A DNA stretch of 64,000 nt from a virus: the UHGV virus genome UHGV-0468246, one strand, 5' to 3'. Position numbers and translations under genes: made by a program. Below, in pieces: positions 3,260 to 52,416 of the stretch; positions within the stretch are counted from its first letter, which is position 1, and each line of letters begins with the position of its first letter. A model generated the notes under the pieces. It ran no database searches. It was not told where the DNA came from and saw nothing but the letters and a program-made list of their open reading frames with translations.

Positions 3260-3268
3260 CCCCCCCCC
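3260..3268 (-). repeat. G9 homopolymer (sense) in the 5' leader, 3 nt upstream of the ATG
   Basis: Plus-strand CCCCCCCCC; same G9-CA leader type as at 7668 and 52353. Confidence 0.8.
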
Positions 3269-7667: not shown

Positions 7668-7676
7668 CCCCCCCCC
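7668..7676 (-). repeat. G9 homopolymer (sense) 6 nt upstream of the dnaE ATG
   Basis: Sense sequence ...TCGATTATTTAATCGAgagacatggataGGGGGGGGGcacggaATG. Confidence 0.8.
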
Positions 7677-30829: not shown

Positions 30830-30830
30830 G

Positions 30831-32249
30831 TCACTTCTCCCACGAGACCATGCCGGGGAACCGAGTGTCGCCCTTCTCGCACTGCGGGCACACGAGCGTC
30901 ACGCTCGTGCTGTACTGGCCCGCGTTCGGGCCTCCGCTGTGCTGCACGTTGGTGACGTACCCGGAAAGCCCCAAGCTCTTCACCTTCACGCGCATGCCGG
31001 GCCAGATGTTCGGCATCCACGTTATCTGCAAGCTCATCTGGTACTGGTTGGCCCAGTTTCGCATGAACTCGTACAGCGCGTAAAGGAACGGGAGGATGTA
31101 CTGCGGGTTCGCGTCCGTCCCTCCGCTCGTCCCGCTGTCGTTCGGCTTCTCGATGACGTGCTGAAGCTGCTTCTTGGCGGGCCTCGCCCCGTAGCGGCGG
31201 TACAGCTCGCGCGGCGTGAACCGCCACTCCTCGCCCTCCGGTATGTTGATGAGCTTCTTCAGCAGCTCGCTCGGCTCGTTCGATATGGCGTTCTCCCCGA
31301 CATCGTTCAAAACGCCCGACGACAAGGCGGCTGTGTTGCTCTCGATGGACACCACGCCCTGCGTGAGCGCCCATTGCATGTCGGAGGTCTGGCCGCTGCT
31401 TGTGAGGTACTGCCCGCCGGTGTTCACGCCTGCGCAGAACTGATGGCTCACGAACGTGTCGTCGGACTGGGTTATCTTCAGGTCGATCAGCTCGATGTCG
31501 TCGAGCAGAAGGCACGGCGTGTTGCCAGAAACGCCCCAGTAGTCGGGATACCACGCCATGAAGGTACCGTCCGGCCCGGCCATCACCGTGCGCATGGACG
31601 AGTTGAATATGTCCTTGACCGTGTTCCACACCGGCTCGTCGTTCGCCAGCGCGCGCTCGCCGACGAGCAGCTGGGATGCCGCCGCGTTCATCGTGTCGCC
31701 GAAGCTCGATGCGAAGAACCACGCCGTCGAGGCGAGGGAGCCTGACGAGGAGTTCGCCCCTCCGCCCTGCGCCTCGGCCTCCTCGGTGCTGTCAGCATCG
31801 CCGCCGTACTCGCTCGCCGTTATTCCGTCCTTGCTCTGAACGTACCTCGGCGTAACAAACAAGAAGCCGCCGCTGTCGTACACGTTCACCGACAAGTTGT
31901 ACTTCAGGGCATAGGACGATATTGCGTTGACGGCGTTCAACTTGGTTCGCTCGCCAACGTCGATAAGGGAGAACTCCCATGCAAGCCCGTAGCCGAAATA
32001 ATGTATGTACTGCAAGAACTTGACGTTGCCGTCCTCGGCCCACCTCTCGGCGCTCTCCTTTGACACGTAGCCTGAATAGCCGAAGTCTATGGTAAGCCCG
32101 TTGTAGTTCTTTTCGAGGTCTGCCGCAAACAGGCGACACGCCGCCTCGAACGCGCCTTGGAGGCCGTTCGTGCCCTCTCCGCGCGTTTCGGCCTCGTTAA
32201 CCCCCGCGTACTTGTCGTCGTCGGTTGGCACGAAGTACTTCCCTAGCAT
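30831..32249 (-). CDS. baseplate hub-like protein (gp27/gpD-like position)
   Basis: 472 aa; start MLGKYFVPT with RBS GGAGGA 5 nt upstream; lies between the lysin island and the spike. Confidence 0.35.
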   Translation of the reverse strand: MLGKYFVPTDDDKYAGVNEAETRGEGTNGLQGAFEAACRLFAADLEKNYNGLTIDFGYSGYVSKESAERWAEDGNVKFLQYIHYFGYGLAWEFSLIDVGERTKLNAVNAISSYALKYNLSVNVYDSGGFLFVTPRYVQSKDGITASEYGGDADSTEEAEAQGGGANSSSGSLASTAWFFASSFGDTMNAAASQLLVGERALANDEPVWNTVKDIFNSSMRTVMAGPDGTFMAWYPDYWGVSGNTPCLLLDDIELIDLKITQSDDTFVSHQFCAGVNTGGQYLTSSGQTSDMQWALTQGVVSIESNTAALSSGVLNDVGENAISNEPSELLKKLINIPEGEEWRFTPRELYRRYGARPAKKQLQHVIEKPNDSGTSGGTDANPQYILPFLYALYEFMRNWANQYQMSLQITWMPNIWPGMRVKVKSLGLSGYVTNVQHSGGPNAGQYSTSVTLVCPQCEKGDTRFPGMVSWEK

Positions 32250-32250
32250 C

Positions 32251-33396
32251 CTATCCTCCGAACTGGTCGTACGCCGACCGGGCATATGCGATGCGCTTCT
32301 CCATCATGGGGACGGAACCGCGCGTGTACACCCGCTCGAACGCCTCCGTTGCCCATGGCAGATCGGTGATCGCCTTGAACTGGTCGAACGTCATCTTCTC
32401 CGCTATCCACGCCTGCGCGCCGTTCGGATACGTGTAAACTCCGTTGCCGGTGAAAGCGTCGAACTGGGCGGGTGCCTCGCTGACGAAGAACAAGAGCTGC
32501 GCCTGTATGTCCGTCCATTCGGTGCCGCGCTCCGACGCGAAGGCGCACAGGTCGCTGAACCGGCCAGAACCCGCCTCCCACTGAAGCAGCCCGCGTCCGG
32601 GGCCTCCGCCTCCTTGGCACGCCGCCGGGTCTACGCCGCTCTCCTGCTGCATGTTCCCGATCACGCCAGCCGCCGCCTGCTTGCTGAAGCCTTGGCTCAT
32701 GCAGAAGTTCCACACCACCTCCGCGTTGCTGTTGCCGCTGAAGTCGGCAGCTCCGCCCGACGACGAGCCTTCGCTTGCCCCTCCTATGGCGGGGCCTGAC
32801 GTTTGCAGCATCTTGTAGATTTGATTCACCATGTCCGCACCTTGGGTGTCCGAGAGCTTCGCTTGGTACATGGATGTCGCCCACTCGATCACGTCGCTCG
32901 GTATCTGGCCCACGCTGATCTTCGACGCGGGCCAGTCCGCGACCGCTTGGAGCACCTTGACCCCGCTCTTCCAATAGCCGCCGTCCTGCTCCGTATCGTC
33001 CTGCCCACGATAGACGAGCCAGAAGCTCTCCTCCAAGCCCGCGTCCCAGTAGAGCTTCTGCAAGCGGTACAGGACATCGCGCCCCCTTATCTCAACCTCG
33101 TCGGTGTTGAGGTTGTAGTAAGGGGCCTTCGTGACGTAGCCCGCGAGGACTTGGTAGCGGTCTGCCTTGGAGAGGTATATGGCGATCTTGTCCATGGGCA
33201 TGAGAAGCCCGGTGTACTTTTCCCCCTCGTTCTTCAGGTGCAGGATGAAGTCGCTCGAATCGTCCGTCTTCAGGTTGACGGTGAACCGCGTGATGTCGTC
33301 CGAGAGGTCGTACGCAGTCGTCCTCCCGTCGCGCGTCAGCGACACGTTGGCCTCGACCATGGGGGTGTATGTAAGGATAGCCGTCATGGCTGACAT
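32251..33396 (-). CDS. tail-associated lysin paralog C: shared N-terminal domain plus lysozyme-like C-terminal domain
   Basis: N-terminus MTAILTYTPMVEANV... is paralogous to the 39055 and 40143 genes; C-terminus GVIGNMQQESGVDP...GRGLLQW fits the phage tail-tip lysozyme family. Confidence 0.6.
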   Translation of the reverse strand: MSAMTAILTYTPMVEANVSLTRDGRTTAYDLSDDITRFTVNLKTDDSSDFILHLKNEGEKYTGLLMPMDKIAIYLSKADRYQVLAGYVTKAPYYNLNTDEVEIRGRDVLYRLQKLYWDAGLEESFWLVYRGQDDTEQDGGYWKSGVKVLQAVADWPASKISVGQIPSDVIEWATSMYQAKLSDTQGADMVNQIYKMLQTSGPAIGGASEGSSSGGAADFSGNSNAEVVWNFCMSQGFSKQAAAGVIGNMQQESGVDPAACQGGGGPGRGLLQWEAGSGRFSDLCAFASERGTEWTDIQAQLLFFVSEAPAQFDAFTGNGVYTYPNGAQAWIAEKMTFDQFKAITDLPWATEAFERVYTRGSVPMMEKRIAYARSAYDQFGG

Positions 33397-33437
33397 TCTA
33401 CCATTCGCGGCGCTCCCCCTCCATGCAGCTCGGCACC

Positions 33438-33453
33438 TCGATTATTTAATCGA
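33438..33453. promoter_or_regulatory. near-palindromic site TCGATTATTTAATCGA overlapping the C39 gene stop codon
   Basis: Lies ~40 nt upstream of the lysin C ATG. Confidence 0.45.
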
Positions 33454-34149
33454 GCGGAGACTGTAGAAGTAGAGCCACTGCGTGGCGTTAAGCTCCTCAT
33501 CGGAATAAGGGCGCTGCGAGTTGTCGCCGCTCTTGGGGTCGCGGATGCGAACGTCGCCGTCGAAGCTCTGCCACAGCAGCACGACGTGGCCGCCGTAGCA
33601 GTTGCCCTGGCCGCCGAGCTGACCGGTCATACCGGCGAACACCACCGCGCCGTCCGCGCACTCCGCCAGCGCCTCGTCGAGCGTCCAGTAGATTTCGGAG
33701 CCGTCGAGGCCGTAGGCCTCCTCCGCGTACGCGCAGAACTTGCCGGGGTCGTTGACCCCATCGGTCAGGCACGTGTCGCCAACGACCGCCGCGAGGTCGC
33801 GCGGGTAGGTGATCTGGTTCGTAAGGTACTCTATCGCCATGGCGGCGCACACGAGGCCGCACCCGGCCTGCGAGATCGACGAGCCTGCGTACTCGATTCC
33901 TCCCCACTGCGGGTCGTCCTGAAGGTACAGCGGCATGTTGTAGCCCGTCGGTATGGCCCTCTGGGCCTCTGTGGCGGGCGCTGGGAGGTCGTTAGCGTCG
34001 AAGTCGAGATAGGGTTCATCTTCGAGCCAAACGGGGGTTCTGGGAGGCTCTGCGTCCGTCTGTGGCACATCGGAGAAAACCGAATAGCCGATGATCGCCG
34101 CGAACAGCGCGGCGACCGCCAGACATTTTATGTAGCCGTTTCGTCTCAT
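33442..34149 (-). CDS. secreted/membrane-anchored C39-like (papain-fold) peptidase
   Basis: N-terminal hydrophobic segment CLAVAALFAAIIGY; DPQWGGIEYAGS...QAGCGLVCAAMAIEY is typical of Peptidase_C39_2. Confidence 0.55.
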   Translation of the reverse strand: MRRNGYIKCLAVAALFAAIIGYSVFSDVPQTDAEPPRTPVWLEDEPYLDFDANDLPAPATEAQRAIPTGYNMPLYLQDDPQWGGIEYAGSSISQAGCGLVCAAMAIEYLTNQITYPRDLAAVVGDTCLTDGVNDPGKFCAYAEEAYGLDGSEIYWTLDEALAECADGAVVFAGMTGQLGGQGNCYGGHVVLLWQSFDGDVRIRDPKSGDNSQRPYSDEELNATQWLYFYSLRSIK

Positions 34150-34182
34150 GGCCGATGATTATACCCCAGCGGGAGCCAAGCG

Positions 34183-34602
34183 TCACCCGGTTCGCTCCCA
34201 CAGCGGCACCGCCACCGACAACGGCATGTTGTTGTGAGGCCGGTTCTGCGCCATGGGCACGTCGTCCCTGTGGTTCTCCTCGTCGTTGATGAAGCCCCAC
34301 CCGGAGGTACCGGTGCCTTGGAAGAACTCGACCCCCGACATGCTCGAACCAGAGGCTAGGTTGCACAGGAGCGCGTGCGCATGCCACGGAAGCTCCGCAG
34401 CGGTGAGCGCGTGCGCGTTCTCCCCGTACCTTCCGCCCGTCCGGTACGTGCCGCCAGCCGCCACGAGGTACACGCCCTCGTCGTGGCGCTCCCACGTGGT
34501 GCCGGGCCACTCCGCGTTCGGGTCGCCCTTGCAGAACACGAACTCGCCGACGGCGTGCGGGCAGTAAACGGAGCGCTTCGGCCCGAAGAGGATGCTAGTC
34601 AC
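34183..34602 (-). CDS. tail-collar-domain (MdpB-like) mini-protein, array member a
   Basis: GTG start after AAGGAGG. Motifs WPGTTW, GENAHALTAAELPWHAH, C-terminal HNNMPLSVAVPLWERTG. Confidence 0.6.
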   Translation of the reverse strand: MTSILFGPKRSVYCPHAVGEFVFCKGDPNAEWPGTTWERHDEGVYLVAAGGTYRTGGRYGENAHALTAAELPWHAHALLCNLASGSSMSGVEFFQGTGTSGWGFINDEENHRDDVPMAQNRPHNNMPLSVAVPLWERTG

Positions 34603-35074
34603 GATGCGCCTCCTTCAGAGCGAGAAGCCCCCCCCCCGACGTGCACTTCCACACGTAGGCTGCGATGTACGGCGGAACGTTGTTGTGAGGCTTGTCGCCG
34701 CCCGTGTAGTAAATCAGGTTCTGCACCCAGTTCGACCACGCCCCCTCCGTGTAGGCCACGGTGCCGTCGTCCACCCTGTAGTCCCCGGAAGCGCTCATGT
34801 TGAACTTCTTCCCGTTCGGATTGTCGGGGGAGTGCGTGTGCCGGGGCATCTCATCGACCGTGAGGACGTGCGCGGCCTCGCCGCCCGTGCTGCCGACTGC
34901 GTACGCTCCGGAGGCCGCGCCCGCGCACACGAACGTCCCGGCGGCCAAAAGCTCCCACTTCGTCCCCGGCCATCTTGCTGACGGGTCGGTGTCCGACAGC
35001 GTGAAGTACAGGTCTCCCGCGTCGTACGGGCACAAGACCGATTTACCGCCGCCGCTCTGAACCTTGACCGTCAT
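34595..35074 (-). CDS. tail-collar-domain mini-protein, array member b
   Basis: WPGTKW, GGEAAHVLTVDEMPRHTH, HNNVPPYIAAYVWK, then a G10 tract encoding the C-terminal GGG tail. Confidence 0.55.
   Translation of the reverse strand: MTVKVQSGGGKSVLCPYDAGDLYFTLSDTDPSARWPGTKWELLAAGTFVCAGAASGAYAVGSTGGEAAHVLTVDEMPRHTHSPDNPNGKKFNMSASGDYRVDDGTVAYTEGAWSNWVQNLIYYTGGDKPHNNVPPYIAAYVWKCTSGGGLLALKEAHRD
34628..34637 (-). repeat. poly-G tract 1 (G10 on sense strand) at the 3' end of array member b
   Basis: Plus-strand C10; sits 25 nt upstream of the GTG start of member a. Confidence 0.8.
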
Positions 35075-35095
35075 AGCGGCATCGCCCCGCACAGA

Positions 35096-35497
35096 TCACG
35101 CGGTGCGCCTCCACAGCGGGACGCATACGGAGTACGGCATGTTGTTGTGGGGCTGGCCTCCGCCCGTGTGGACGGAACTGCTGTCAATCCAGTTGTTGCC
35201 AGAAACAGCGGCGTACCTCCCCGTGTTGCCGCCCTTCGACAGCTCGACGTTCCAGTTGTTGCCGCCGTCGCCGGTGTGGCTGTGGCTCGGAATCTCCTCG
35301 ATGGTGAGGATGTGCGAGTTCTCCCCACGGTTCGTGAGCGTCTTGAAGTTGTCGCCGGAAGAGACGAGGTAGGTTGCCTCCTCGTATCTGGCCCATGTGG
35401 TGCCGGGCCACTCGCCGTTGGGGTCGAACTCGCAGTGCAGCCACGTTCCAACAGGATGCGGGCAGTAGTAGCCCTTCCCCTTGACGTTAAGCCGCAT
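35096..35497 (-). CDS. tail-collar-domain mini-protein, array member c
   Basis: WPGTTW, GENSHILTIEEIPSHSH, C-terminal HNNMPYSVCVPLWRRTA. Confidence 0.6.
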   Translation of the reverse strand: MRLNVKGKGYYCPHPVGTWLHCEFDPNGEWPGTTWARYEEATYLVSSGDNFKTLTNRGENSHILTIEEIPSHSHTGDGGNNWNVELSKGGNTGRYAAVSGNNWIDSSSVHTGGGQPHNNMPYSVCVPLWRRTA

Positions 35498-35930
35498 GGC
35501 GCATCACGGAGGCGGCTATGCCCCCCCCCCTGATCGTGCGCAGGTTTATCTTCACGGGCCAATTAGACCCGTTGCAGGTTCCGCCGACATCGGAGAACGT
35601 CACCTTCGTCCCGGATATGGCGGCCCTCGCGCGCCAAAGGCACGAGTTGCCCCCAATCGCGGTTCCGAAATGGAGGTCTACCGTCTTGCCGTTCGGTGAG
35701 TACACGCGGAAGGTCGGGAGCCAAACGCCGTCGTTGTACATGCAGTCAAATTCAAGCCACTGGTAGCTCGCGGCGCTCGCGCTCAACGCGTACACGTTGC
35801 CGTTGCTCAAAAGATGGCTGCCGCTCCACAAGGTCGCTACGCCCTGCTTCGAGTACGGGATGGTCGGTATCTGCGCGATGTTGAGCACGGGCGTTTGAAC
35901 GCCGGACGAGTTACGGTACTTCAGGTACAT
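35487..35930 (-). CDS. small beta-rich protein of a different family embedded in the collar array, array member d
   Basis: Start MYLKYRNSSGV with RBS GAGAGGAGG; no collar motifs; C-terminus runs through the G10 tract (…RTIRGGGIAASVMRHAA). Confidence 0.5.
   Translation of the reverse strand: MYLKYRNSSGVQTPVLNIAQIPTIPYSKQGVATLWSGSHLLSNGNVYALSASAASYQWLEFDCMYNDGVWLPTFRVYSPNGKTVDLHFGTAIGGNSCLWRARAAISGTKVTFSDVGGTCNGSNWPVKINLRTIRGGGIAASVMRHAA
35521..35530 (-). repeat. poly-G tract 2 (G10 on sense strand) at the 3' end of member d, 27 nt upstream of member c's ATG
   Basis: Plus-strand C10. G9 would give an immediate stop; G11 reads through ~150 codons. Confidence 0.8.
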
Positions 35931-35950
35931 CTCATGCCTCCTCTCGGAGG

Positions 35951-36379
35951 CTACGCGGTGCGCCTCCACATATCGACGGAAAGGTACGGGGGCCTGTTCT
36001 CATGCGGCTTGTTCCTTCCGGGGAGCCGAACGTACTTATCTTCCCACTTGACCTTACCGTATTCGCTCGTAATGCCCCAAGCGTCTGCTCCGCCGCTATT
36101 GTCGCGCTGCTTCGATTGCAGATAGATTTGCGGCAAAGCGTCTGCCGACAACGTGACGGAGGCTGCGCCGCCGGTATTGCCGACGGCGTAATCGCCGGTC
36201 GTCGCGCCTCCGCTCGACACGAGGAAGGTGCCCGCAGCGATGCGCGTCCAAGTCGTCCCCGGCCAGAGAGCGGACGGCGTGACGTTGGATGCGCTGATGT
36301 AAACCCCTCCCACCGGGAACGGGCAGAACTGCTGAACGGATGCTCCGTTGCGCCATTTGAGGACGGACAGGTTAGCCAT
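35951..36379 (-). CDS. tail-collar-domain mini-protein, array member e1
   Basis: WPGTTW, GGAASVTLSADALP, C-terminal HENRPPYLSVDMWRRTA. Confidence 0.55.
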   Translation of the reverse strand: MANLSVLKWRNGASVQQFCPFPVGGVYISASNVTPSALWPGTTWTRIAAGTFLVSSGGATTGDYAVGNTGGAASVTLSADALPQIYLQSKQRDNSGGADAWGITSEYGKVKWEDKYVRLPGRNKPHENRPPYLSVDMWRRTA

Positions 36380-36821
36380 GCAGACCACCGCCCGAAGATG
36401 CTACGCGGTGCGCTCCCACATGTACACGACGAGGTACGGGGGCATGTTGTTGTGCGACTGCCCCCCCCGCCAAATGCATGACATCGCTGTCAACCGGGTC
36501 GCCCGCCATCATGCCGCGCGATATGCACATTTGTTCTTGCGTTCCGCTGCCGGTGCGCCAATATCCCTGCGTGTCGTGGTTGTGGGGCGGCATCTCTGCC
36601 TTCGTCAAGGTATGCCTCTCCTCGCCGCCGGTCGAGCCTGCCGACTTGGAGCCTGCGGCGTACAGGAACACGTCCTGCAACCTTCTCCACGTCCCGCCCA
36701 TGAACGTTGACGGGTCGGTCGCCTTGGTCGAATGGTAGATGCTGCCCACCGGGAAGAACAGGTTCAGGAGCGAGACGGTCGAGCCGCCCGCCCTCGCCTT
36801 GAAGCCGAGCGCGGTGGTCAC
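36372..36821 (-). CDS. tail-collar-domain mini-protein, array member e2, frameshifted at a G8 tract
   Basis: GTG start. GGEERHTLTKAEMPPHNH is present. As sequenced the C-terminus is out of frame; G7 or G10 restores …HLAGG(G)QSHNNMPPYLVVYMWERTA-stop. Confidence 0.5.
   Translation of the reverse strand: MTTALGFKARAGGSTVSLLNLFFPVGSIYHSTKATDPSTFMGGTWRRLQDVFLYAAGSKSAGSTGGEERHTLTKAEMPPHNHDTQGYWRTGSGTQEQMCISRGMMAGDPVDSDVMHLAGGAVAQQHAPVPRRVHVGAHRVASSGGGLHG
36461..36468 (-). repeat. poly-G tract 3 (G8 on sense strand) inside member e2
   Basis: Plus-strand C8; the frame of the conserved C-terminal strand depends on tract length. Confidence 0.8.
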
Positions 36822-36842
36822 AAGATCACCGCCTCTCGCTCG

Positions 36843-37253
36843 TTACGAAACCCTCTTCCACATATCGACCGCGAGGTACGGAGGCCGGTTCTCGTGCGCG
36901 CCTCCTTCTCCCGTGTCGCCGGAGAAGGTGTTAGACCAGAACGTGTTGCTGCCGTTGATGAAGTACAGACATGGAGAGCTTCCGCCGCCCGCGTCGTACC
37001 CGTTGTATATGGAGTGCTGGTGGCTCGGAATCTGCGCCGTGGTGAGGGCGACGGAAGCCGCCCCTCCCGTCTTGCCTGCGGCATAGTCACCCGACGCGAC
37101 ACCGCCGCTCGACGCGAGGAACGTGCCGGAAGCGATGCGCTCCCAAACCGTCCCCGGCCAGAAGCCAGCCGGGTCGATGTTGGAGACGTTGAAGTAGACG
37201 CTGCCGACGGGCAGGGGGCAGTAATAGCCCGTGCCGACGACTTTAAGCCGCAT
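36843..37253 (-). CDS. tail-collar-domain mini-protein, array member e3
   Basis: WPGTVW, GGAASVALTTAQIPSHQH, C-terminal HENRPPYLAVDMWKRVS. Confidence 0.6.
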   Translation of the reverse strand: MRLKVVGTGYYCPLPVGSVYFNVSNIDPAGFWPGTVWERIASGTFLASSGGVASGDYAAGKTGGAASVALTTAQIPSHQHSIYNGYDAGGGSSPCLYFINGSNTFWSNTFSGDTGEGGAHENRPPYLAVDMWKRVS

Positions 37254-37265
37254 GGGGCACCTCCC

Positions 37266-37681
37266 CTACGCCGTGCGCCTCCAAACGAACACGGTTGCGT
37301 ACGATGGGTAGAACGGTGCCCCCCCCCGGTCGTGCCAGTGGTCGTGCCGGTCTTGGCATCTCCGTCTCCCCATGCGGGCGCGCTCGCCACTCCGCTCACG
37401 TTCCAGCAGAACTTGCCGGTGCTCACGTAGAGATGGCTGTGCGCTGGCATCTGCGACACGCTTATGGTGTCGCTGCCGCCGGTCGCCCCCGCCTTGGAGG
37501 ACGCGGAGCCGCCGCGAAGGTACCTGTCGGTCGCGTACAGCGCCCACGTCCCGCCGAGGAACGAGGATGGGTTCTTGTTCTCGTAGGTGAGGTACGCGCT
37601 CCCCACGGGAAAGAACATGTCAAGAAGGGTCACGGTCGCGCCGTTCGCCTTCAGCTTCACGCCATGGGCGGTAACGGTCAT
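37266..37681 (-). CDS. tail-collar-domain mini-protein, array member e4, frameshifted at a G9 tract
   Basis: N-terminal part is in track ORF 36818..37681 (…GGSDTISVSQMPAHSH…TGTTGGG); C-terminal part APFYPSYATVFVWRRTA is in track ORF 37266..37547. G10 would join them. Confidence 0.5.
37319..37327 (-). repeat. poly-G tract 4 (G9 on sense strand) inside member e4
   Basis: Plus-strand C9; a +1 G restores the conserved C-terminus. Confidence 0.8.
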
Positions 37682-37699
37682 GCCATCACCGCCTTTCGG

Positions 37700-38104
37700 T
37701 CATGAGATTCTGCGCCAGAAGTACACCGCAACGTACGGCGGCATGTTGTTGTGGGCGGCATTGCCGCCGACGCTGACGAGCCTTCCCAGATTGCCGCTCG
37801 GGGCGTATCCGTACTCTCCCTGCGCGAACGCCCTGTTCCCGAGGTCTCCGACGATGAGCATGTCGGCTGATGGGTTGTGGTTGTGAGATGGCATCTCCGA
37901 GACGGAGAGCTTATGGGCCGCCTCGCCACCGGTCGCCCCTCCGGCGTACGACGAACCTGCGCCGAGCAGGAACCGGTCTTTCCCGTAAAGGCTCCACGAG
38001 GTTCCGGGCCAATAGGACGACGGGTTGACGTTCTCCGTCGAGATGTAGATGCCGTTCGGCTGGACGGGGCAGTAGCAGCCGTGTCCGGGGACGTTAAGCC
38101 GCAT
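37700..38104 (-). CDS. tail-collar-domain mini-protein, array member e5
   Basis: WPGTSW, GGEAAHKLSVSEMPSHNH, C-terminal HNNMPPYVAVYFWRRIS. Confidence 0.6.
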   Translation of the reverse strand: MRLNVPGHGCYCPVQPNGIYISTENVNPSSYWPGTSWSLYGKDRFLLGAGSSYAGGATGGEAAHKLSVSEMPSHNHNPSADMLIVGDLGNRAFAQGEYGYAPSGNLGRLVSVGGNAAHNNMPPYVAVYFWRRIS

Positions 38105-38128
38105 AGGGCACCGCCTCCCCGCACGGGG

Positions 38129-38556
38129 CTACATTGCGGTTGCCCCCCCCCGGTTCGCTTCCACATGTACACGGCGAGCCAAGGCGGCATGTTGTTGTGC
38201 GCGGCATTGCCGCCGACGCTCGCCGACGCGACGATTGCCGTGTTGCCGGTGTACGCGAAGCCGTTGCCGGGAGAGCCGTCCGTTCCAGTCCATTGCGGCC
38301 ACTCGACGTTGTGCGCATGGCTCGGCATCTCGTTCACGGTGAGCTTATGGGCCGCCTCGCCGCCGGTGTTCCCGACCTTGTAGGTGCCCGAGGCCGCACC
38401 GGCCACGAGGAACGTACCGGCTGCGACCAGCTCCCACGTCGTGTCGCCCCAGCGCGTCGCCGGGTTGACCGCCGACATGGTTACGTACACGTCTCCGACC
38501 GCGTACGGGCACAGGTTCTTCTTAGCGCCGTTCTGGCTGTATGAGAGGGCGGTCAT
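38129..38556 (-). CDS. tail-collar-domain mini-protein, array member f; the 3' end is set by a G9 tract (as sequenced the frame reads through to ~37678)
   Basis: Start MTALSYSQNG after GGGGGTGG. GGEAAHKLTVNEMPSHAH, HNNMPPWLAVYMWKRT, then a G tract. G10 gives …GGGATAM-stop at ~38129. Confidence 0.5.
38143..38151 (-). repeat. poly-G tract 5 (G9 on sense strand) at the 3' end of member f
   Basis: Plus-strand C9, directly upstream of the RBS of member e5. Confidence 0.8.
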
Positions 38557-38572
38557 GCGACCACCCCCCGCG

Positions 38573-39000
38573 CTACGCCGTCCTCTTCCAGACGTTGACG
38601 GAGATGTGGAGCGGGTAGTAGTCCGCCCCCCCCCTGTTGCGTTCGTCCATGCGTCGAACGTGTATAGCGAATCTTCGACAACGCCGGAAAGGGCGAAGTT
38701 CTCGCTGCCTTCCACGTTCTCCCTCAACGTGGTCGTGACAGACCTTGTTCCCGAATGGATGTGCGACGGCATCTGGCCGACGCTTATCTTCTTCGAGCCG
38801 CCTACGGCACCAGCCGCAGCGTACCCAGCCGTCCCGGCGCACGCGAGCACGCCGCCCGTCAGCTTCACCCACGTGCCGCCGAAGACGGTGTTCGGGTCTT
38901 CCGAGCCGACGGTGAGGTAAAGGCTGTTCACCGGGCGCACGAGGTCGAGCATCGTCTTGTCGATGCCGCCCTCCAGATGGAACCCGCTCAATCTTGCCAT
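38573..39000 (-). CDS. tail-collar-domain mini-protein, array member g, frameshifted at a G9 tract (reads in frame into member f as sequenced)
   Basis: RBS AGGAGG before ATG 39000. GGSKKISVGQMPSHIH…NATGGG, then the frame is lost; G10 restores ADYYPLHISVNVWKRTA-stop at 38573. As sequenced, track ORF 37678..39000 fuses g and f. Confidence 0.5.
38626..38634 (-). repeat. poly-G tract 6 (G9 on sense strand) inside member g
   Basis: Plus-strand C9. Confidence 0.8.
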
Positions 39001-39054
39001 TGCCGCCTCCTGTGTGTCTGACGCTGAAATGATAGCACAGGGCCGGGCGCTCGG

Positions 39055-40146
39055 CTACGCCGCCTTCTCGTAGCGGAAGAAGTGCGTCCAGCCGCCGGAG
39101 ATTTTCACCACGGAGATTTCATCGCCCGTCTGGTCTCCGCCCTGCCCGTATATGCCGCCGTCCTCCGCGCTGTGAGCGCCCGCCGTCTCTCCGTTGCCGA
39201 TGTACCATTCCGTGTGCGCTGCGCGCCACATGATGTCGCCGCGCTTCAGCGAGCCGACGTTGCCGTCGTACGGGTACATCTTCCATCCGATGGGCGGAAG
39301 AACCTCCTGCATGCGCGTCGTGTTGAACGTCCAGCTTCCAAGCTCCTCGCGCGTCCATCCACCGGCGAGGAGCGAGTAGAAGACCAATGACGAGCAGTCG
39401 TAATCGGGGTTCCCGTCGCGGTTCCCCTGACTGTACCCGTGGCTGTCGTCGTTGCATATCTGTATGGCCCACTGCACGGCCTTCTCGACCGCCTCGTACG
39501 AAGCGGTTCCCCCTCCGGCTGACGACGAGCCGCCGGAGCCTATGGCGGGGCCTGACGTTTGCAGCATCTTGTAAATCTGGTTCACCATGTCCGCGCCTTG
39601 GGTGTCGGCCAGCTTGACGCGGTACATCGACGTTGCGAACTCGATCACGTCGTCGGGCAGCTGCCCTATGGCGATCTTCGACGCGTCCCAGTTGGCGACG
39701 TTGGTGAGCACGTTCGCCCCCACGCGCCAGTACTCCTCGTGCGTCTTCCACGTCGAGCTGTTCGTGAACAGGAGCTGCTGCGATTCGTACAGCCCCGCGT
39801 CCCAGTAGAGCGCTTGGAGGCGGTAGAGCGCGCACTTCCCGGACATCTCGAAGTCGGCGTTGTAGAGCCGCCAGAAGTCGCACTTGGTGATGTACCCGGC
39901 GAAGACCGGGTACTCGTCGCCCTTGGACAGGCGTATGACGATTCTGTCCATGGGCGTGAACGCCCCGTTGTACTTGCCGCCCTTGTTCTGAAGTGACAGG
40001 GAGAACGTGGAGCAGCTATCGACGTTCAGGTTTATCTTGAAGCCGGTGATGTCGTCGGTGAGGTCGTACGCGCGCACGGAGCCGTCCTGCTGGCGCACCG
40101 CCACCTCGGCCTTGACCATCGGCGTGTAGGTGAGTATGGCCGTCAT
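39055..40146 (-). CDS. tail-associated lysin paralog B: shared N-terminal domain plus NlpC/P60- or CHAP-like Cys/His peptidase domain
   Basis: Start MTAILTYTPMVKAEV (internal ATG of track ORF 39055..40422); C-terminal YDCSSLVFYS…HTEWYIGNG papain-like Cys/His motifs. Confidence 0.6.
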   Translation of the reverse strand: MTAILTYTPMVKAEVAVRQQDGSVRAYDLTDDITGFKINLNVDSCSTFSLSLQNKGGKYNGAFTPMDRIVIRLSKGDEYPVFAGYITKCDFWRLYNADFEMSGKCALYRLQALYWDAGLYESQQLLFTNSSTWKTHEEYWRVGANVLTNVANWDASKIAIGQLPDDVIEFATSMYRVKLADTQGADMVNQIYKMLQTSGPAIGSGGSSSAGGGTASYEAVEKAVQWAIQICNDDSHGYSQGNRDGNPDYDCSSLVFYSLLAGGWTREELGSWTFNTTRMQEVLPPIGWKMYPYDGNVGSLKRGDIMWRAAHTEWYIGNGETAGAHSAEDGGIYGQGGDQTGDEISVVKISGGWTHFFRYEKAA

Positions 40147-41243
40147 GGCAGAAGCCCCGGCCTGCACGGATAGGCCTCGTCGAGTATAACGCCGCCGTTC
40201 CAGCCCCACCCGGTGCCCTGCGGCACGTAGGTGTTGCCGGAGTTCACCCATTCCGTCAGCGACCACTCGTGCACGTACCCTATGTTGTCGAGAACCACGC
40301 CGTTGCCGACGTAGATTCCCACATGGCCGTACACGCATCCGGGGTTGCCGGAGTTGTCCCAGCCGTAGCCGAACACGGCTGCTCCGACCTTGACCTTGCT
40401 CCAATCCGTCGATGCGCCCCACGCCCGCGCCGCCTCGCGCGCCGAAGACTTGCGGGGTATCTTGATTCCGGCAGCGTCGAACACGTCGTCAACCCACTTC
40501 TGGCAGAAGCCGCCCTGCGTGGTTATGCCGTACCTCTCGGAGTTCTTCGCGACCTCGACGATCTTCTTCTGCGCCTCGGTCACGTCGCCGTCGAACACGT
40601 CCCCGCCGAGGCCCCCGATGTCCCCCGTCGCCTCCGTGAAGGTAGGCCCCGACACCTGCAACATCGAGTAGATTTGATTCACCATGTCGGCTCCCTGCGT
40701 GTCGGCCAGCCTCGCATCGTACATCGACAGCGCCCACTCGATGACCTCGGTCGGTATCTGGCCCACGCTGATGCGCTCGGCGGGCCAACCGGCGACGCTC
40801 ATCAGGACGTTGGCTGCGGCGCGCCAGTAGCCGCCGTCCTGATCGGAGCTTTCGGCGCTCTGGAAAGTGACAAGCTCGCGAGACGCGAGAAGGCCGCTGT
40901 CCCAGTAAAGGGCCTGCAAGCGCCATAGAACGTCCTTGCCCGTTATGGTGACGGGCTGCGAGTTCAGCATGAACATGGGAACCTTCGTGACGTAGCCCGC
41001 GAGGACTTGGTAGCGGTTCGCCTTGGAGAGGTATATGGCTATCGCGTCCATGGGCTTGAACGCCCCGTCGTACTTGCCGCCGACGTTCTGAAGCGTGAGC
41101 GAGAACGTGGAGCAGCCGTCGGTGTTCAGCGTCACGGAGAAGTCGGTGATGTCGTCGGTGAGGTCGTAGTACTTGTAGCCGTTCGCCGTCTGCGCCCTCA
41201 CCTGCGCGCTCACCATCGGCGTGTAGGCGAGTATGGCCGTCAT
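40143..41243 (-). CDS. tail-associated lysin paralog A: shared N-terminal domain plus CHAP peptidase domain
   Basis: MTAILAYTPMVSAQV…; C-terminal GGFCQKWVDDVF…GHVGIYVGNG CHAP-like Cys/His motifs. Confidence 0.65.
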   Translation of the reverse strand: MTAILAYTPMVSAQVRAQTANGYKYYDLTDDITDFSVTLNTDGCSTFSLTLQNVGGKYDGAFKPMDAIAIYLSKANRYQVLAGYVTKVPMFMLNSQPVTITGKDVLWRLQALYWDSGLLASRELVTFQSAESSDQDGGYWRAAANVLMSVAGWPAERISVGQIPTEVIEWALSMYDARLADTQGADMVNQIYSMLQVSGPTFTEATGDIGGLGGDVFDGDVTEAQKKIVEVAKNSERYGITTQGGFCQKWVDDVFDAAGIKIPRKSSAREAARAWGASTDWSKVKVGAAVFGYGWDNSGNPGCVYGHVGIYVGNGVVLDNIGYVHEWSLTEWVNSGNTYVPQGTGWGWNGGVILDEAYPCRPGLLP

Positions 41244-41752
41244 GCCCCGGTCGCCTCCCCACGGAACGCAGCGTCGCCCTGCGCCTTGATATCGTCCTGC
41301 TCAACCTTGTCGGCGGGGATGTCGCCAACGCCTCCGGTGTTCTCGCTCTCGTTGCCCTCCTCGCCCGTCTCGTCCTTGACGATGACGCACTGGTAGGAGT
41401 TTTGGTAGACGGAATCGCCGAACTTCACGTCAACCGGGAAGCTGGTGAACGCGATGGAGTAGGACTTCTTTATGACGGGTATGGAGAGCACCATGTGGCT
41501 CGGCTTGGTCATCGAGGTGAGGTACATGTGGTACTCGGCTATCCAGCGCGAGAACTCCAAGTACTCCTCCCGGCTCCTGAACGCGAGGCCGAGCGTTATG
41601 TCGCTCTTGCGCCAGTTGCGGGGGTACGCCGTCTGCCCCTGCCGCGCGTACGACGTTGCCGTGAGGCCGAGCGACATGCCGAAGGCGAAGTCCTCGACTA
41701 TGACATCCTTGCTCCTGCCGTTGTACGTCAGCGTCCCGTTGAACGTTCCCAT
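41240..41752 (-). CDS. tail/baseplate assembly protein (hypothetical)
   Basis: 170-aa track ORF between TMP-proximal genes and lysin A. Confidence 0.4.
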   Translation of the reverse strand: MGTFNGTLTYNGRSKDVIVEDFAFGMSLGLTATSYARQGQTAYPRNWRKSDITLGLAFRSREEYLEFSRWIAEYHMYLTSMTKPSHMVLSIPVIKKSYSIAFTSFPVDVKFGDSVYQNSYQCVIVKDETGEEGNESENTGGVGDIPADKVEQDDIKAQGDAAFRGEATGA

Positions 41753-41753
41753 G

Positions 41754-42467
41754 TCAGCTCACCCTGTTGTAGGAGCCGTCTTCGTTCCACACGTAGCGAA
41801 CCATCTCCGACGTGCCGCCCGACACTTCGAGGCGCACCACGCCGTCGTCGGTCGTGACCTCCCCGTCGTCGTTCTGCCTGATCTTCTCGTACTGCTCGTA
41901 GAGGCTCGCGCCGTAAGCGTCGTAGCTCCCGCTGTTCTCCACGACCTGCTTCAGCGCCTTCAGCATGTCTTCCCAGTTGTTCGTGTCGGGCGTGTTGTAC
42001 ACGCTGCGCGTCCACCCAACGCCGTCGGGGATGGCGTTGAGCGCGTCGGTCGCCACGATCTCCTTGATGGTGTCGAAGCCGGTATCGACGAAGAACGTGA
42101 GCTGGTAGCTTATGGCCGCGACCTTCGGGCTGTAGCTGAACTTCGACACGTCCTTCAGGAACACCTTCCCGTTCCATCCGAGCACCGGGAAGTAGAACGT
42201 GACCGGGTTGCCGGTGTCCACATGGTACTGCATGATGTCGGCCATCTTCTGCTGGAACTCCTCCATGCGCTGGTAGCGGTTCTCGTTCGTGAGGCCGCGC
42301 GCCGAGAGGTAGCCGGTGATGGTGAGGTCGCCGATGTTGCGCGCGATGATCTGGACGACGGTGCCGCCCTTCGTCTGAATCTTGTTCGTCTTCAGCTCGT
42401 AGCCCCATTTCGCCGTGCTGGGGTCGATGCCGAACGCGTAGTTGCCGAGCCTCGCCGTAGCCATCAC
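41754..42467 (-). CDS. tail protein immediately downstream of the tape measure (XkdP/gpX-like position)
   Basis: 237-aa track ORF; start overlaps the TMP stop. Confidence 0.4.
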   Translation of the reverse strand: MMATARLGNYAFGIDPSTAKWGYELKTNKIQTKGGTVVQIIARNIGDLTITGYLSARGLTNENRYQRMEEFQQKMADIMQYHVDTGNPVTFYFPVLGWNGKVFLKDVSKFSYSPKVAAISYQLTFFVDTGFDTIKEIVATDALNAIPDGVGWTRSVYNTPDTNNWEDMLKALKQVVENSGSYDAYGASLYEQYEKIRQNDDGEVTTDDGVVRLEVSGGTSEMVRYVWNEDGSYNRVS

Positions 42468-52334: not shown

Positions 52335-52352
52335 GGCCCTTGACAGGCCGTG

Positions 52353-52361
52353 CCCCCCCCC
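52353..52361 (-). repeat. G9 homopolymer (sense) in an intergenic leader, followed by CACGG as upstream of dnaE
   Basis: Sense ttatGGGGGGGGGcacggcctg, compared with ataGGGGGGGGGcacggaATG upstream of dnaE. Confidence 0.8.
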
Positions 52362-52416
52362 ATAACGGTTCCTTCGGGCGGCCAGATCAACATAGTCAGG
52401 CTCCCGACACCGGCGT

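What the first reader, a model, noticed from the sequence alone, without database searches (positions are those of the whole stretch)
34183..39000. Tandem array of ten tail-collar (MdpB-like) mini-genes whose 3' ends are gated by poly-G tracts
Between two tail-lysin paralogs lie 11 small genes (133-165 aa), back to back. Ten share the collar/MdpB signature W-P-G-T-(T/S/K/V)-W ... G-G-(E/A/S)-x-x-H-x-L-(T/S)-x-x-(E/Q)-(M/I/L)-P-x-H-x-H ... (H/E)-N-(N/R)-(M/P)-P-x-(Y/W)-x-x-x-x-x-W-(K/R/E)-R-(T/V/I)-(A/S/G)-stop; one (member d) is unrelated. Six homopolymeric C runs on the plus strand (G in the sense strand) lie within the last ~25 codons or the gene-gene junctions of this array. Their lengths are 10, 10, 8, 9, 9, 9 (at 34628, 35521, 36461, 37319, 38143, 38626). 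With the sequence as given, tracts 1-2 are in frame. Tracts 3, 4 and 6 put the conserved C-terminal strand out of frame. Tract 5 makes gene f read through for ~150 codons. At G9, tract 6 fuses gene g in frame to gene f (track ORF 37678..39000, 440 aa, two collar domains). Setting each tract to G10 restores a canonical C-terminus in every case: …GGGQSHNNMPPYLVVYMWERTA, …GGGAPFYPSYATVFVWRRTA, …GGGADYYPLHISVNVWKRTA, …WKRTGGGATAM. Tracts of 8-10 G are the classic substrate for slipped-strand mispairing or RNA-polymerase slippage. This looks like a phase-variable (or transcriptional-slippage-driven) repertoire of receptor-binding tail-tip proteins, including ON/OFF states and fused variants. I am not aware of this arrangement being described for phage collar-domain arrays. 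The alternative is systematic homopolymer under-calling.
Basis: partly seen in the sequence, partly recalled or inferred. Interest (0 to 1): 0.9.

Follow-up and report, generated by a model that had tools for sequence, protein, structure and literature searches.

The report
Poly-G switches in phage tail-tip genes
A common human-gut phage of Eggerthella lenta carries a row of small tail-tip (host-recognition-type) genes, several of which have a slippery run of 8-10 G's just before their last structural strand, and these runs change length between otherwise near-identical phages, so the phage can probably switch individual tail-tip proteins on and off, as already known for Campylobacter phages.

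Summary
Eleven small minus-strand genes (34183-39000) lie between tail-lysin paralogues. Ten are stand-alone T4 gp10 C-terminal-type domains (Pfam PF21939, not Pfam Collar). The eleventh (d) has a receptor-binding-protein-like beta-sandwich. Six G8-10 tracts are present against 0.04-0.16 expected. The window is a ~98% relative of Eggerthella phage LE2-3. Across about 27 independent assemblies every tract varies (range 6-11), and the window differs from a 99.7%-identical contig at all six. So uniform under-calling is not the explanation. Intergenic poly-G tracts vary too, so instability alone does not show function. The evidence for function is different. The strand beyond the tracts evolves under purifying selection only in the canonical frame (16 synonymous: 1 non-synonymous). 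Paralogue c encodes the same Gly motif without a run. Some genomes carry in-frame alleles with interrupted tracts. The same loop carries poly-G in three further phage lineages, one with 36.5% GC. The best reading is hypermutable contingency tracts gating tail-tip proteins, a new variant of the Campylobacter-phage poly-G mechanism. The k-j fusion is incidental. Consensus states are mostly out of frame, so RNA-level or ribosomal slippage is not excluded. Read-level and protein evidence is missing.

The parts
38573..39000 (-). gene k: gp10_C-type mini-gene. The canonical 142-aa product needs t6 = G10. As given (G9) it is fused in frame to j (ORF 37678-39000).
38626..38634 (-). tract t6 (G9), in-domain, 16 codons before the canonical stop
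   Evidence: lengths over genomes {6:2, 8:3, 9:9, 10:1}, plus interrupted in-frame alleles
38129..38556 (-). gene j: gp10_C-type mini-gene. The domain is complete before t5. G10 gives the tail GGGATAM*, and G9 (as given) gives a ~155-aa out-of-frame extension across gene i.
38143..38151 (-). tract t5 (G9), directly after the domain end WKRT
   Evidence: lengths {7:1, 8:1, 9:9}; G7TG4 in L007
37700..38104 (-). gene i: intact gp10_C-type mini-gene without a tract (MRLNV type)
37266..37681 (-). gene h: gp10_C-type. The canonical 138-aa product needs t4 = G10. As given (G9) it reads through gene g out of frame (287-aa ORF).
37319..37327 (-). tract t4 (G9), in-domain
   Evidence: lengths {8:1, 9:4}; GGGTGGGG in L007
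36843..37253 (-). gene g: intact gp10_C-type mini-gene without a tract (MRLKV type)
36401..36821 (-). gene f: gp10_C-type. The canonical 140-aa product needs t3 = G10 or G7. As given (G8) it ends in a 32-aa alternative tail.
36461..36468 (-). tract t3 (G8), in-domain, at the conserved Gly-Gly-Gly before HNNMPPY
   Evidence: lengths {8:4, 9:4}; sister-lineage homologue {7:2, 8:3, 9:1}
35951..36388 (-). gene e: intact gp10_C-type mini-gene without a tract
35487..35930 (-). gene d: not gp10_C. It is a beta-sandwich resembling receptor-binding-protein head domains. The likely start is ATG MYLKYR at 35930, which has a strong SD. t2 encodes its extreme C-terminal tail.
35521..35530 (-). tract t2 (G10), after the fold of d and 23 nt before the start of gene c, which has no SD of its own. 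G9 gives RGGA*. G10 gives an 11-aa tail whose stop overlaps the c start. G8 reads across all of c.
   Evidence: lengths {8:7, 9:9, 10:3}
35096..35497 (-). gene c: intact gp10_C-type mini-gene (MRLNV type). It encodes the same TGGGQ motif with non-slippery codons GGC GGA GGC.
34595..35092 (-). gene b: gp10_C-type. The domain is complete before t1, and all three frames give short tails (7-14 aa).
34628..34637 (-). tract t1 (G10), after the domain end WKCT and 25 nt before the start of gene a
   Evidence: lengths {8:4, 9:15, 10:1, 11:1}
34183..34602 (-). gene a: intact gp10_C-type mini-gene, last of the array
39055..40140 (-). upstream flank: tail-associated lysin paralogue with an Amidase_5/ELLD C-terminal domain
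32251..33396 (-). downstream flank: tail-associated lysin paralogue with a Phage_lysozyme2 C-terminal domain. A weak C39-like protein lies between it and the array at 33442-34149.

Best explanation
The region is a plastic tandem array of stand-alone distal tail/baseplate domains in the baseplate module of an LE2-3-like Eggerthella lenta myophage. Ten genes are T4 gp10_C-type and one is a receptor-binding-protein-like beta-sandwich. Six of the genes carry a G8-10 homopolymer made by using GGG codons at a conserved Gly motif or at the very end of the domain. These tracts gain and lose bases, most likely by slipped-strand mispairing during phage DNA replication (inferred). In genes f, h and k the tract lies about 16-20 codons before the stop, so only one length class (7/10/13) lets the invariant last beta-strand (P-x-Y-x-x-V-x-x-W-x-R-T-A) be translated. 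The other lengths replace it with junk or read into the next gene, which is an OFF state (inferred from the invariance of that strand). In b, d and j the tract follows the fold and changes only the tail, or creates a long out-of-frame extension across the next gene. The result would be a phage population that is a mixture of genotypes displaying different subsets of tip proteins. This is a contingency-locus, bet-hedging design like the poly-G tracts of Campylobacter phages, and it plausibly answers the phase-variable capsule of E. lenta (inferred). Shown here: the tracts, their non-randomness, their polymorphism in nature, the frame consequences, selection on the canonical frame, and the homology and fold of the proteins. 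Inferred: the slippage mechanism, heterogeneity within a population, incorporation into virions, and receptor binding.
Against: Intergenic Shine-Dalgarno-type poly-G tracts of the same phage are also polymorphic (7668: {8:7, 9:4}; 3260: {8:3, 9:9}), so instability is generic and not specific to the array. The modal length is 8-9 in all classes. As a result the in-domain tracts are in the canonical frame in only about 10 of 49 consensus observations, which is no more than chance (one third) and perhaps less. The isolate LE2-3, which grows on DSM 2243, has f and k out of frame. No reads were available, so heterogeneity within a population is not shown. There is no evidence that these proteins are in the virion or bind receptors. 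L007 also has indels at two short (5-6 nt) runs in genes e and d, which could reflect sequencing noise in that assembly. The model of gene d is of modest confidence (pLDDT 61.5 overall, about 75 in the core).
Confidence: 0.6

Rival explanations
1. Recoding instead of mutation. The genome normally sits at an out-of-frame length (mostly G9), and the canonical protein is made from a fraction of transcripts or ribosomes, either by RNA-polymerase slippage on the G run or by -1 ribosomal slippage on G GGG GGG. Each tract-bearing gene would then yield two products at a fixed ratio.
For: Consensus states are mostly out of frame, yet the canonical frame is under purifying selection. At the modal G9 a -1 shift (equivalent to one extra G) gives exactly the canonical frame for t4, t6 and tX. 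G GGG GGG fits the X XXY YYZ slippery pattern (established knowledge of -1 frameshifting).
Against: Tract length is not conserved, as it is at programmed slippage sites. It differs between 99.7%-identical genomes, and G8 states would need the opposite shift. Several genomes make the canonical protein directly from interrupted, non-slippery tracts. No RNA structure stands out from shuffled controls in the 80 nt downstream of any tract (z from -1.7 to +1.6). Efficient transcriptional slippage is documented mainly for A/T runs (my own knowledge, not checked here).
Confidence: 0.15
2. Neutral mutational hot spots in redundant genes. The array is a birth-and-death family. G runs arise and drift, frameshifts are tolerated because other paralogues suffice, and there is no selected switching function.
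For: Intergenic tracts vary equally. The canonical frame is seen no more often than chance. Array content varies from 1.85 to 6.26 kb, with frequent loss of genes. L007 carries extra frameshifts in genes e and d.
Against: The out-of-frame terminal strands show 16 synonymous: 1 non-synonymous change, which is incompatible with long-term pseudogenes. The tract position is conserved between lineages whose genes are only about 76% identical. It recurs in a 36.5% GC phage, where a G9 is compositionally very improbable. Tract-free paralogue c shows that the amino-acid motif does not require a run.
Confidence: 0.15
3. Sequencing or assembly artefact. All tracts are really one length (for example G10) and are miscalled.
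For: Homopolymers are error-prone. One assembly (L007) also has indels at 5-6-nt runs. Sequencing platforms are not known for these records.
Against: Lengths deviate in both directions (6 to 11) in about 27 assemblies from different projects and assemblers, and in an isolate genome. In-frame -3/+3 alleles (G6, G7TG4) and three distinct interrupted alleles cannot be miscalls of G10. The same assemblies call some tracts uniformly, for example one intergenic tract at 9 in six of six sister-lineage contigs.
Confidence: 0.05

Closest known systems
Hypermutable poly-G tracts in receptor-binding-protein genes of Campylobacter Fletchervirus phages (Sorensen et al. 2021, Cell Rep 35:109214; cited in PMC12823448 and PMC10877375; the paper itself is not held in the library)
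   Same: Homopolymeric G tracts inside phage host-recognition genes; frameshift ON/OFF; several candidate receptor-binding proteins per phage (up to four, per PMC10877375); the host itself phase-varies its capsule.
   Different: The host here is a high-GC Gram-positive gut actinobacterium. There are six to seven tracts in one tandem array of single-domain gp10_C-type mini-genes. The tract sits at the 3' end, gating only the last beta-strand or the tail. The array also varies in gene number. Nothing has been shown experimentally here.
Phage contingency loci in T2/T4/T6 and other phages (Gomez, Barrick and Waters 2025, bioRxiv, PMC12633550)
   Same: Single-base repeats of 6 or more in phage genes mutate reversibly at high rate by polymerase slippage and give bet-hedging. 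They are reported as widespread and present in all gene classes.
   Different: Those are mostly A runs scattered through the genome, and the demonstrated cases concern anti-defence genes (agt, rIIA). Here the tracts are G8-10, concentrated 40- to 150-fold over expectation in one paralogous tail-tip array, and sit at a homologous structural position.
Bacterial contingency loci (Neisseria, Haemophilus and Campylobacter surface genes with homopolymer or short repeats)
   Same: A repeat in a coding sequence, three-frame logic, combinatorial diversity from several independent loci, and stabilisation by interrupting substitutions.
   Different: Those are cellular genomes. Their tracts are usually near the 5' end so that OFF is an early truncation. 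Here the OFF state keeps about 85% of the protein.
T4 gp10 C-terminal domain and the related gp12/gp11 tail-fibre head domains (PDB 2FKK, 5IV5); SU10 chain 7Z47_I, probably the short tail fibre
   Same: Sequence and fold homology through to the last strand (PYxxVYxWxR). An HxH motif is nearly invariant in the family (H74 and H76 of gene i). In T4 and SU10 fibres such His pairs bind metal on the trimer axis (PMC9509320).
   Different: In those phages the domain is the C-terminal part of a long fibre or wedge protein. Here it stands alone (133-165 aa) in 3 to 13 or more tandem copies.
Other phage host-range diversifiers: diversity-generating retroelements (BPP-1 Mtd) and invertible tail-fibre segments (Mu Gin, P1 Cin)
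   Same: They create mixed phage populations with alternative receptor-binding ends.
   Different: They use a reverse transcriptase or a recombinase. No such enzyme is needed here, and none was looked for systematically.

Membership tests
Pfam PF21939 Gp10_C (T4 baseplate gp10 C-terminal domain) | Significant match to the family HMM over most of its length | tested here: met
   Ten of ten collar-like genes match with E from 3.5e-5 to 6e-23. Eight are above the 27-bit gathering score. Genes a (26.7) and c (25.2) fall just below it. Gene d has no hit.
Pfam PF21939 Gp10_C (T4 baseplate gp10 C-terminal domain) | Fold like the solved gp10 C-terminal domain, including the terminal strand | tested here: met
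   The family profile matches 2FKK at E 2e-10, aligned to the last residues (PYITVYRWIRI). The model of gene i (pLDDT 73.5) finds 5IV5, 2FL8 and 2FKK as best PDB matches, with TM about 0.5. The variable middle of the model is low-confidence.
   PF07484 was not reported at E <= 0.01 for any of the ten genes. No NCBIfam model matched at E <= 1. One homologue is named 'microcystin-dependent protein' by JGI (P0083), so the label exists in databases, but membership was not shown. COG profiles could not be searched.
Contingency locus (phase-variable gene by simple-sequence repeat) | A homopolymer or short repeat within a coding sequence or promoter, whose length sets the reading frame | tested here: met
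   For t3, t4 and t6 one length class in three gives the conserved C-terminus.
Contingency locus (phase-variable gene by simple-sequence repeat) | Mutation rate at the repeat far above background, in both directions | tested here: met
   This was tested only by comparative data. All six tracts differ between two genomes that are 99.7% identical, and all 8 indels in 12.4 kb are in G/C runs. Both gains and losses occur across about 27 assemblies. No rate was measured.
Contingency locus (phase-variable gene by simple-sequence repeat) | Heterogeneity within a clonal population, and reversibility | not testable with these tools
   No reads or passage data are available.
Contingency locus (phase-variable gene by simple-sequence repeat) | The repeat is maintained by selection and the ON product is functional | tested here: met
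   The evidence is indirect: 16 synonymous: 1 non-synonymous change beyond the tracts in the canonical frame only; tract-free paralogue c encodes the same motif with other codons; the tract recurs at the same loop in four lineages, including one with 36.5% GC.
Contingency locus (phase-variable gene by simple-sequence repeat) | The switch changes a phenotype (adsorption or host range) | not testable with these tools
   This needs experiments with LE2-3 and E. lenta DSM 2243.
Programmed -1 ribosomal frameshift or transcriptional slippage site | Conserved slippery-tract length plus, for ribosomal frameshifting, a downstream stimulatory RNA structure | tested here: not met
   Tract length is not conserved. 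The 80 nt downstream of each tract fold no better than shuffles (z from -1.7 to +1.6). Low-level unstimulated slippage is not excluded.
Phage receptor-binding protein (functional class) | Virion location at the distal tail, and binding to a host surface receptor | not testable with these tools
   There is only homology and fold resemblance to distal fibre or receptor-binding domains, plus location in the baseplate module between tail lysins and near Baseplate_J.

The most novel reading that the evidence does not exclude
The poly-G at the Gly loop before the last beta-strand of gp10_C-type tip proteins may be a recurrent design reached in unrelated gut phages (63%, 61%, 59% and 36.5% GC). In this array each tract may act as a three-state switch on a gene pair. 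One frame makes the full upstream protein. A second frame ends the upstream ORF on top of the next gene's start (ATGCGGCTTAA), which would couple their translation. A third frame sends ribosomes across the whole downstream gene out of frame. With five such pairs plus gene gain and loss, one phage genotype would seed hundreds of virion types differing in tip-protein complement. A second layer may exist, with homopolymers in promoter-like spacers of another small tail-gene family elsewhere in the genome.
Probability: 0.2. Interest if true: 0.8.

Novelty: new variant of a known kind. Interest (0 to 1): 0.6.

Why it matters
The phage is very common in public human-gut metagenomes. The exact protein of gene a is indexed in 1172 blocks of the assembly collection, many on contigs of 50-200 kb. 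Its host, Eggerthella lenta, matters medically because of drug metabolism and inflammation (my own knowledge) and is a target for phage-based microbiome editing (PMC13131767). If the tracts are switches, a single phage stock is a mixture of host-recognition types. That bears on host-range assays, on phage-cocktail design, and on how phage and host coexist when the host flips its capsule loci. There are also practical consequences. Annotation pipelines will keep reporting fused, truncated or missing tail genes here, as in the LE2-3 record. Assemblies will break or differ in this region, and homopolymer 'polishing' would erase real biology. An isolated phage (LE2-3) and host (DSM 2243) exist, so the hypothesis can be tested directly.

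Tried and rejected
(1) Poly-G tracts in the array as Shine-Dalgarno sites. Intergenic tracts at 3260 and 7668 do have the form stop, G9, 3-6 nt, ATG. The array tracts lie 23-72 nt from the next start, and most downstream genes have their own GGAGG-type site, so this was rejected for the array. (2) I first read four LE2-3 tracts at 17.3-18.9 kb as SD plus ATG on the plus strand. ORF analysis showed that the genes are on the minus strand and that the 'ATGTCAAG' is the reverse of CTTGACAT, a -35-like box, so I corrected this. (3) I proposed that gene d belongs with LE23_36-39. BLASTP gives E = 0.6, with only the LKYR start shared, so I withdrew the link. (4) The k-j fusion as a designed two-domain protein is rejected. 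In most genomes the same frame runs into junk, and the four substitutions in that segment are all non-synonymous in the linker frame. (5) A downstream frameshift-stimulating RNA structure was not found. (6) Length variability as proof of function was weakened by the control showing that intergenic tracts vary too, so I replaced it with the synonymous/non-synonymous test. (7) Literature: no paper on LE2-3 was found, and Sorensen 2021 is not held in the library. The E. lenta phage KL11 of PMC13131767 is an unrelated 44-kb siphovirus. (8) The genome-contig scan gave only an irrelevant archaeal hit. An exact-protein look-up of gene e found nothing. (9) Contig ends of short metagenome contigs do not coincide with tracts, so they give no evidence on within-sample heterogeneity.

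Full report
WHAT THE WINDOW IS. The window has 62.7% G+C and nearly all its genes are on the minus strand. Bases 30000-42000 match Eggerthella phage LE2-3 (MW679026.1) at about 98%. LE2-3 is a 111,961-bp phage isolated on E. lenta DSM 2243 from activated sludge in Cork. The window is not LE2-3 itself, because LE2-3 lacks 36838-37676. A gut-metagenome contig (L007, ULTL01052827.1) is 99.7% identical and has the same eleven genes. The array lies in the baseplate module. Upstream are two paralogous tail-associated lysins (NlpC/P60 at 40143-41243 and Amidase_5 at 39055-40140). Downstream are a weak C39-like protein (33442-34149), a third lysin paralogue (Phage_lysozyme2, 32251-33396), structural proteins and Baseplate_J.

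CHECK OF THE OBSERVATION. I rebuilt each gene with the tract set to 8-11. For t3 (gene f), t4 (h) and t6 (k), only G10 (equally G7 or G13) yields the conserved ends QSHNNMPPYLVVYMWERTA*, APFYPSYATVFVWRRTA* and ADYYPLHISVNVWKRTA*. t5 follows the end of gene j (WKRT): G10 gives GGGATAM*, G8 an 18-aa tail, and G9 (as given) about 155 out-of-frame codons across gene i. t6 at G9 joins k to j in frame, producing the 440-aa ORF 37678-39000. t1 follows the end of gene b, and all frames stop within 14 codons. t2 lies at the extreme end of gene d. The alignment of the ten repaired proteins shows 29-38% identity to the first sequence, invariant W and P positions, HxH, and the terminal strand. The clustering is far beyond chance: six runs of 8 or more fall in 4.8 kb against 0.04-0.16 expected. 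GGG is only 19% of Gly codons, and only one of 18 Gly-Gly-Gly triplets counted outside the array is all-GGG; that one probably comes from an intergenic tract inside a stop-to-stop ORF. Paralogue c encodes the same T-G-G-G-Q motif as GGC GGA GGC.

ARE THE TRACTS UNSTABLE, OR MISCALLED? I collected the array from LE2-3, an IMG/VR contig, ten metagenome contigs, six contigs of a sister lineage (array genes 75-87% identical) and ten further 50-118-kb contigs. Every tract seen in three or more genomes varies:
- t1 {8:4, 9:15, 10:1, 11:1}
- t2 {8:7, 9:9, 10:3}
- t3 {8:4, 9:4}, with the sister-lineage homologue at {7:2, 8:3, 9:1}
- t4 {8:1, 9:4}
- t5 {7:1, 8:1, 9:9}
- t6 {6:2, 8:3, 9:9, 10:1}
- an extra k-like paralogue {9:3, 10:2}
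Gene calls made by others flip between fused 300-aa and split 150+142-aa genes exactly as the tract length predicts. The cleanest case is the window against L007: 21 substitutions and 8 indels in 12.4 kb, with every indel in a G or C run inside the array and all six tracts different. This includes in-frame changes (G9 to G6) and T-interrupted forms (G3TG4, G7TG4). Uniform under-calling of G10 cannot produce this pattern.

A CONTROL THAT LIMITS THE CLAIM. Poly-G is used elsewhere in this phage. Tracts at 3260 and 7668 have the form stop codon, G9, 3-6 nt, ATG, which looks like a Shine-Dalgarno site. In ten further genomes these intergenic tracts also vary (7668 {8:7, 9:4}; 3260 {8:3, 9:9}). Instability is therefore a property of any G8-10 run in this phage and does not show that the array tracts are designed switches. 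The modal length is 8-9 in every class, so in-domain tracts are in the canonical frame in only about 10 of 49 consensus observations.

EVIDENCE THAT THE CANONICAL FRAME IS USED AND THE TRACTS ARE SELECTED. (i) The short segment beyond the tract evolves under purifying selection only in the canonical frame. The f strand differs between the window and lineage L043 at 5 codons, all synonymous. The h strand differs at 8 codons, 7 synonymous. Two k haplotypes differ at 4 codons, all synonymous. In the other two frames the same changes are almost all non-synonymous. Most of these genomes carry out-of-frame lengths, so the canonical frame must be expressed often enough for selection to see it. (ii) At the k locus, five genomes have in-frame alleles whose tract is interrupted in three different ways (G6AG4, G6TG4, G3AG7), which stabilises the ON state. 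(iii) A pattern search of IMG/VR for G8 or longer just before H-N-N-M-P-P found three other phage contigs. L043/L046 (120 kb, 59% GC) has three tracts, with G10 where G11 is canonical. L045 (61% GC) has G16, in frame. L044 (247 kb, 36.5% GC) has a confirmed PF21939 gene with G9 where G8 is canonical, plus four more G9-10 tracts in a repeated element beside a second small-gene family. A G9 at the same loop in a 36.5% GC genome cannot be a composition effect.

MECHANISM. The best-supported reading is replication slippage at the tracts, producing genotypes in which f, h and k (and extra paralogues in other genomes) either have or lack their invariant last strand. Genes b, d and j would vary in their tails or acquire long junk extensions. 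The in-frame k-j fusion is incidental. In LE2-3 and most other genomes the same frame reads into junk, and the linker frame is not conserved. I found no downstream RNA structure that would stimulate ribosomal frameshifting, and tract length is not conserved as it is at programmed slippage sites. However, consensus states are mostly out of frame, and a -1 shift on G9 would give the canonical frame, so low-level RNA or ribosome slippage remains a live rival. The array also changes by gene gain and loss, from 1.85 to 6.26 kb and from 3 to at least 13 genes.

AN ARCHITECTURAL POINT NOT IN THE FINDING. The array is built of pairs, each a tract-bearing gene followed by a tract-less one (j>i, h>g, f>e, d>c, b>a). 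After t2, t4 and t5, one frame stops 15-27 nt before the next start. One stops on top of it (ATGCGGCTTAA, 8 nt past the A of ATG). One reads across the entire next gene. Gene c has no Shine-Dalgarno site of its own. The tract may therefore also set translation of the downstream gene. This is untested.

COMPARISON WITH WHAT IS KNOWN. Poly-G phase variation of phage receptor-binding proteins is published for Campylobacter Fletchervirus phages (Sorensen 2021, cited in PMC12823448 and PMC10877375). A 2025 preprint reports homopolymer contingency loci as widespread in T-even and other phages (PMC12633550). So the principle is known. Several things differ here: the host group, the protein family, the concentration of six or seven tracts in one paralogous array, the 3'-terminal last-strand gate at a homologous loop that recurs in unrelated phages, and the coupling with array copy-number change. 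I found no paper describing LE2-3 or this arrangement. E. lenta itself evades phage by reversible inversions of capsule loci (PMC13131767), which gives an ecological reason for a variable tip repertoire, though this is inferred.

VERDICT. I rate it a new variant of a known kind, with interest 0.6. The missing pieces are read-level heterogeneity, proteomics and host-range genetics, all of which are feasible with the existing isolate.

Noticed in passing
window 3260-3268 and 7668-7676 (minus-strand sense): Intergenic G9 tracts with the form stop codon, G9, 3-6 nt, ATG. They lie upstream of a 160-aa gene and of DNA polymerase III alpha, so poly-G appears to serve as the Shine-Dalgarno element. 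They are also length-polymorphic between genomes (8 or 9).
   Followed up: yes
window 52338-52376 (plus strand); LE2-3 L014 17335, 17837, 18391, 18894: A motif TTGACA-N7-C8/9-(T/A)GTTAC(G/C) precedes each of four small minus-strand genes (LE23_36-39, related to each other through their N-termini) next to a 1256-aa collagen-like tail fibre in LE2-3. It looks like a promoter with a homopolymer in its spacer, which is the classic geometry of transcriptional phase variation. One copy lies in the window, is antisense to the capsid-module genes, and is C9 here against G10 in LE2-3. Its function is unknown.
   Followed up: partly
all tracts in window and LE2-3: In this phage lineage about 20 of 21 G8-11 tracts are followed by C, and about 17 by CA, whatever their context (coding, SD-type or promoter-like). 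That is far more than base composition predicts. This is not so in L044 or L045. It is unexplained.
   Followed up: partly
window 32251-33396, 39055-40140, 40143-41243: Three paralogous proteins share an N-terminal ~200-aa domain (MTAILTYTPMV...) but carry three different cell-wall hydrolase domains (Phage_lysozyme2, Amidase_5/ELLD, NlpC/P60). They bracket the array.
   Followed up: partly
loci L002-L032 against window 34183-39000: The array itself is highly plastic. It ranges from 1.85 kb (three to four genes) to 6.26 kb (13 or more genes) among genomes that are otherwise 97-100% identical in the flanks. Whole genes or gene pairs are gained and lost.
   Followed up: yes
L044 5533-7839 (IMGVR_UViG_3300045988_134186, 247 kb, 36.5% GC): A low-GC jumbo phage has five G9-10 tracts about 520-620 nt apart. 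One is inside a gp10_C gene at the homologous loop. Four are in a repeated element ATAT-G9/10-TAGA(T/A)TTT..CCTCCCGTT, at or after the ends of a second family of small genes (MANLNING.../MAILKETIING...).
   Followed up: partly
L045 2148-2163 (IMGVR_UViG_3300045988_011441): A G16 tract sits at the same loop of a gp10_C-type gene, in frame as assembled.
   Followed up: partly
L007 positions matching window 35993 and 35655: The 99.7%-identical contig has two more single-base indels at short runs (C5 to C6 in gene e, G5 to G6 in gene d), and a patch of 8 substitutions within 22 nt in gene d (35733-35754). These could be either sequencing noise or gene conversion and decay in that population.
   Followed up: no
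window 35497 (start of gene c) and 35930 (start of gene d): Gene c lacks any Shine-Dalgarno-like sequence and starts 23 nt after t2. Gene d most likely starts at ATG 35930 (MYLKYR, strong GAGGAGG site), not at the GTG at 35969 that opens the longest ORF. Members of the d family also differ by an 8-aa N-terminal indel (IPTLTLAK) and have two N-terminus types.
   Followed up: partly
LE2-3 record MW679026.1, 70381-71301: The GenBank annotation merges k and part of j into one 306-aa 'tail protein', and the locus tags jump from LE23_93 to LE23_96. This is consistent with annotators struggling with the frameshifts. No note in the record mentions the tracts.
   Followed up: no
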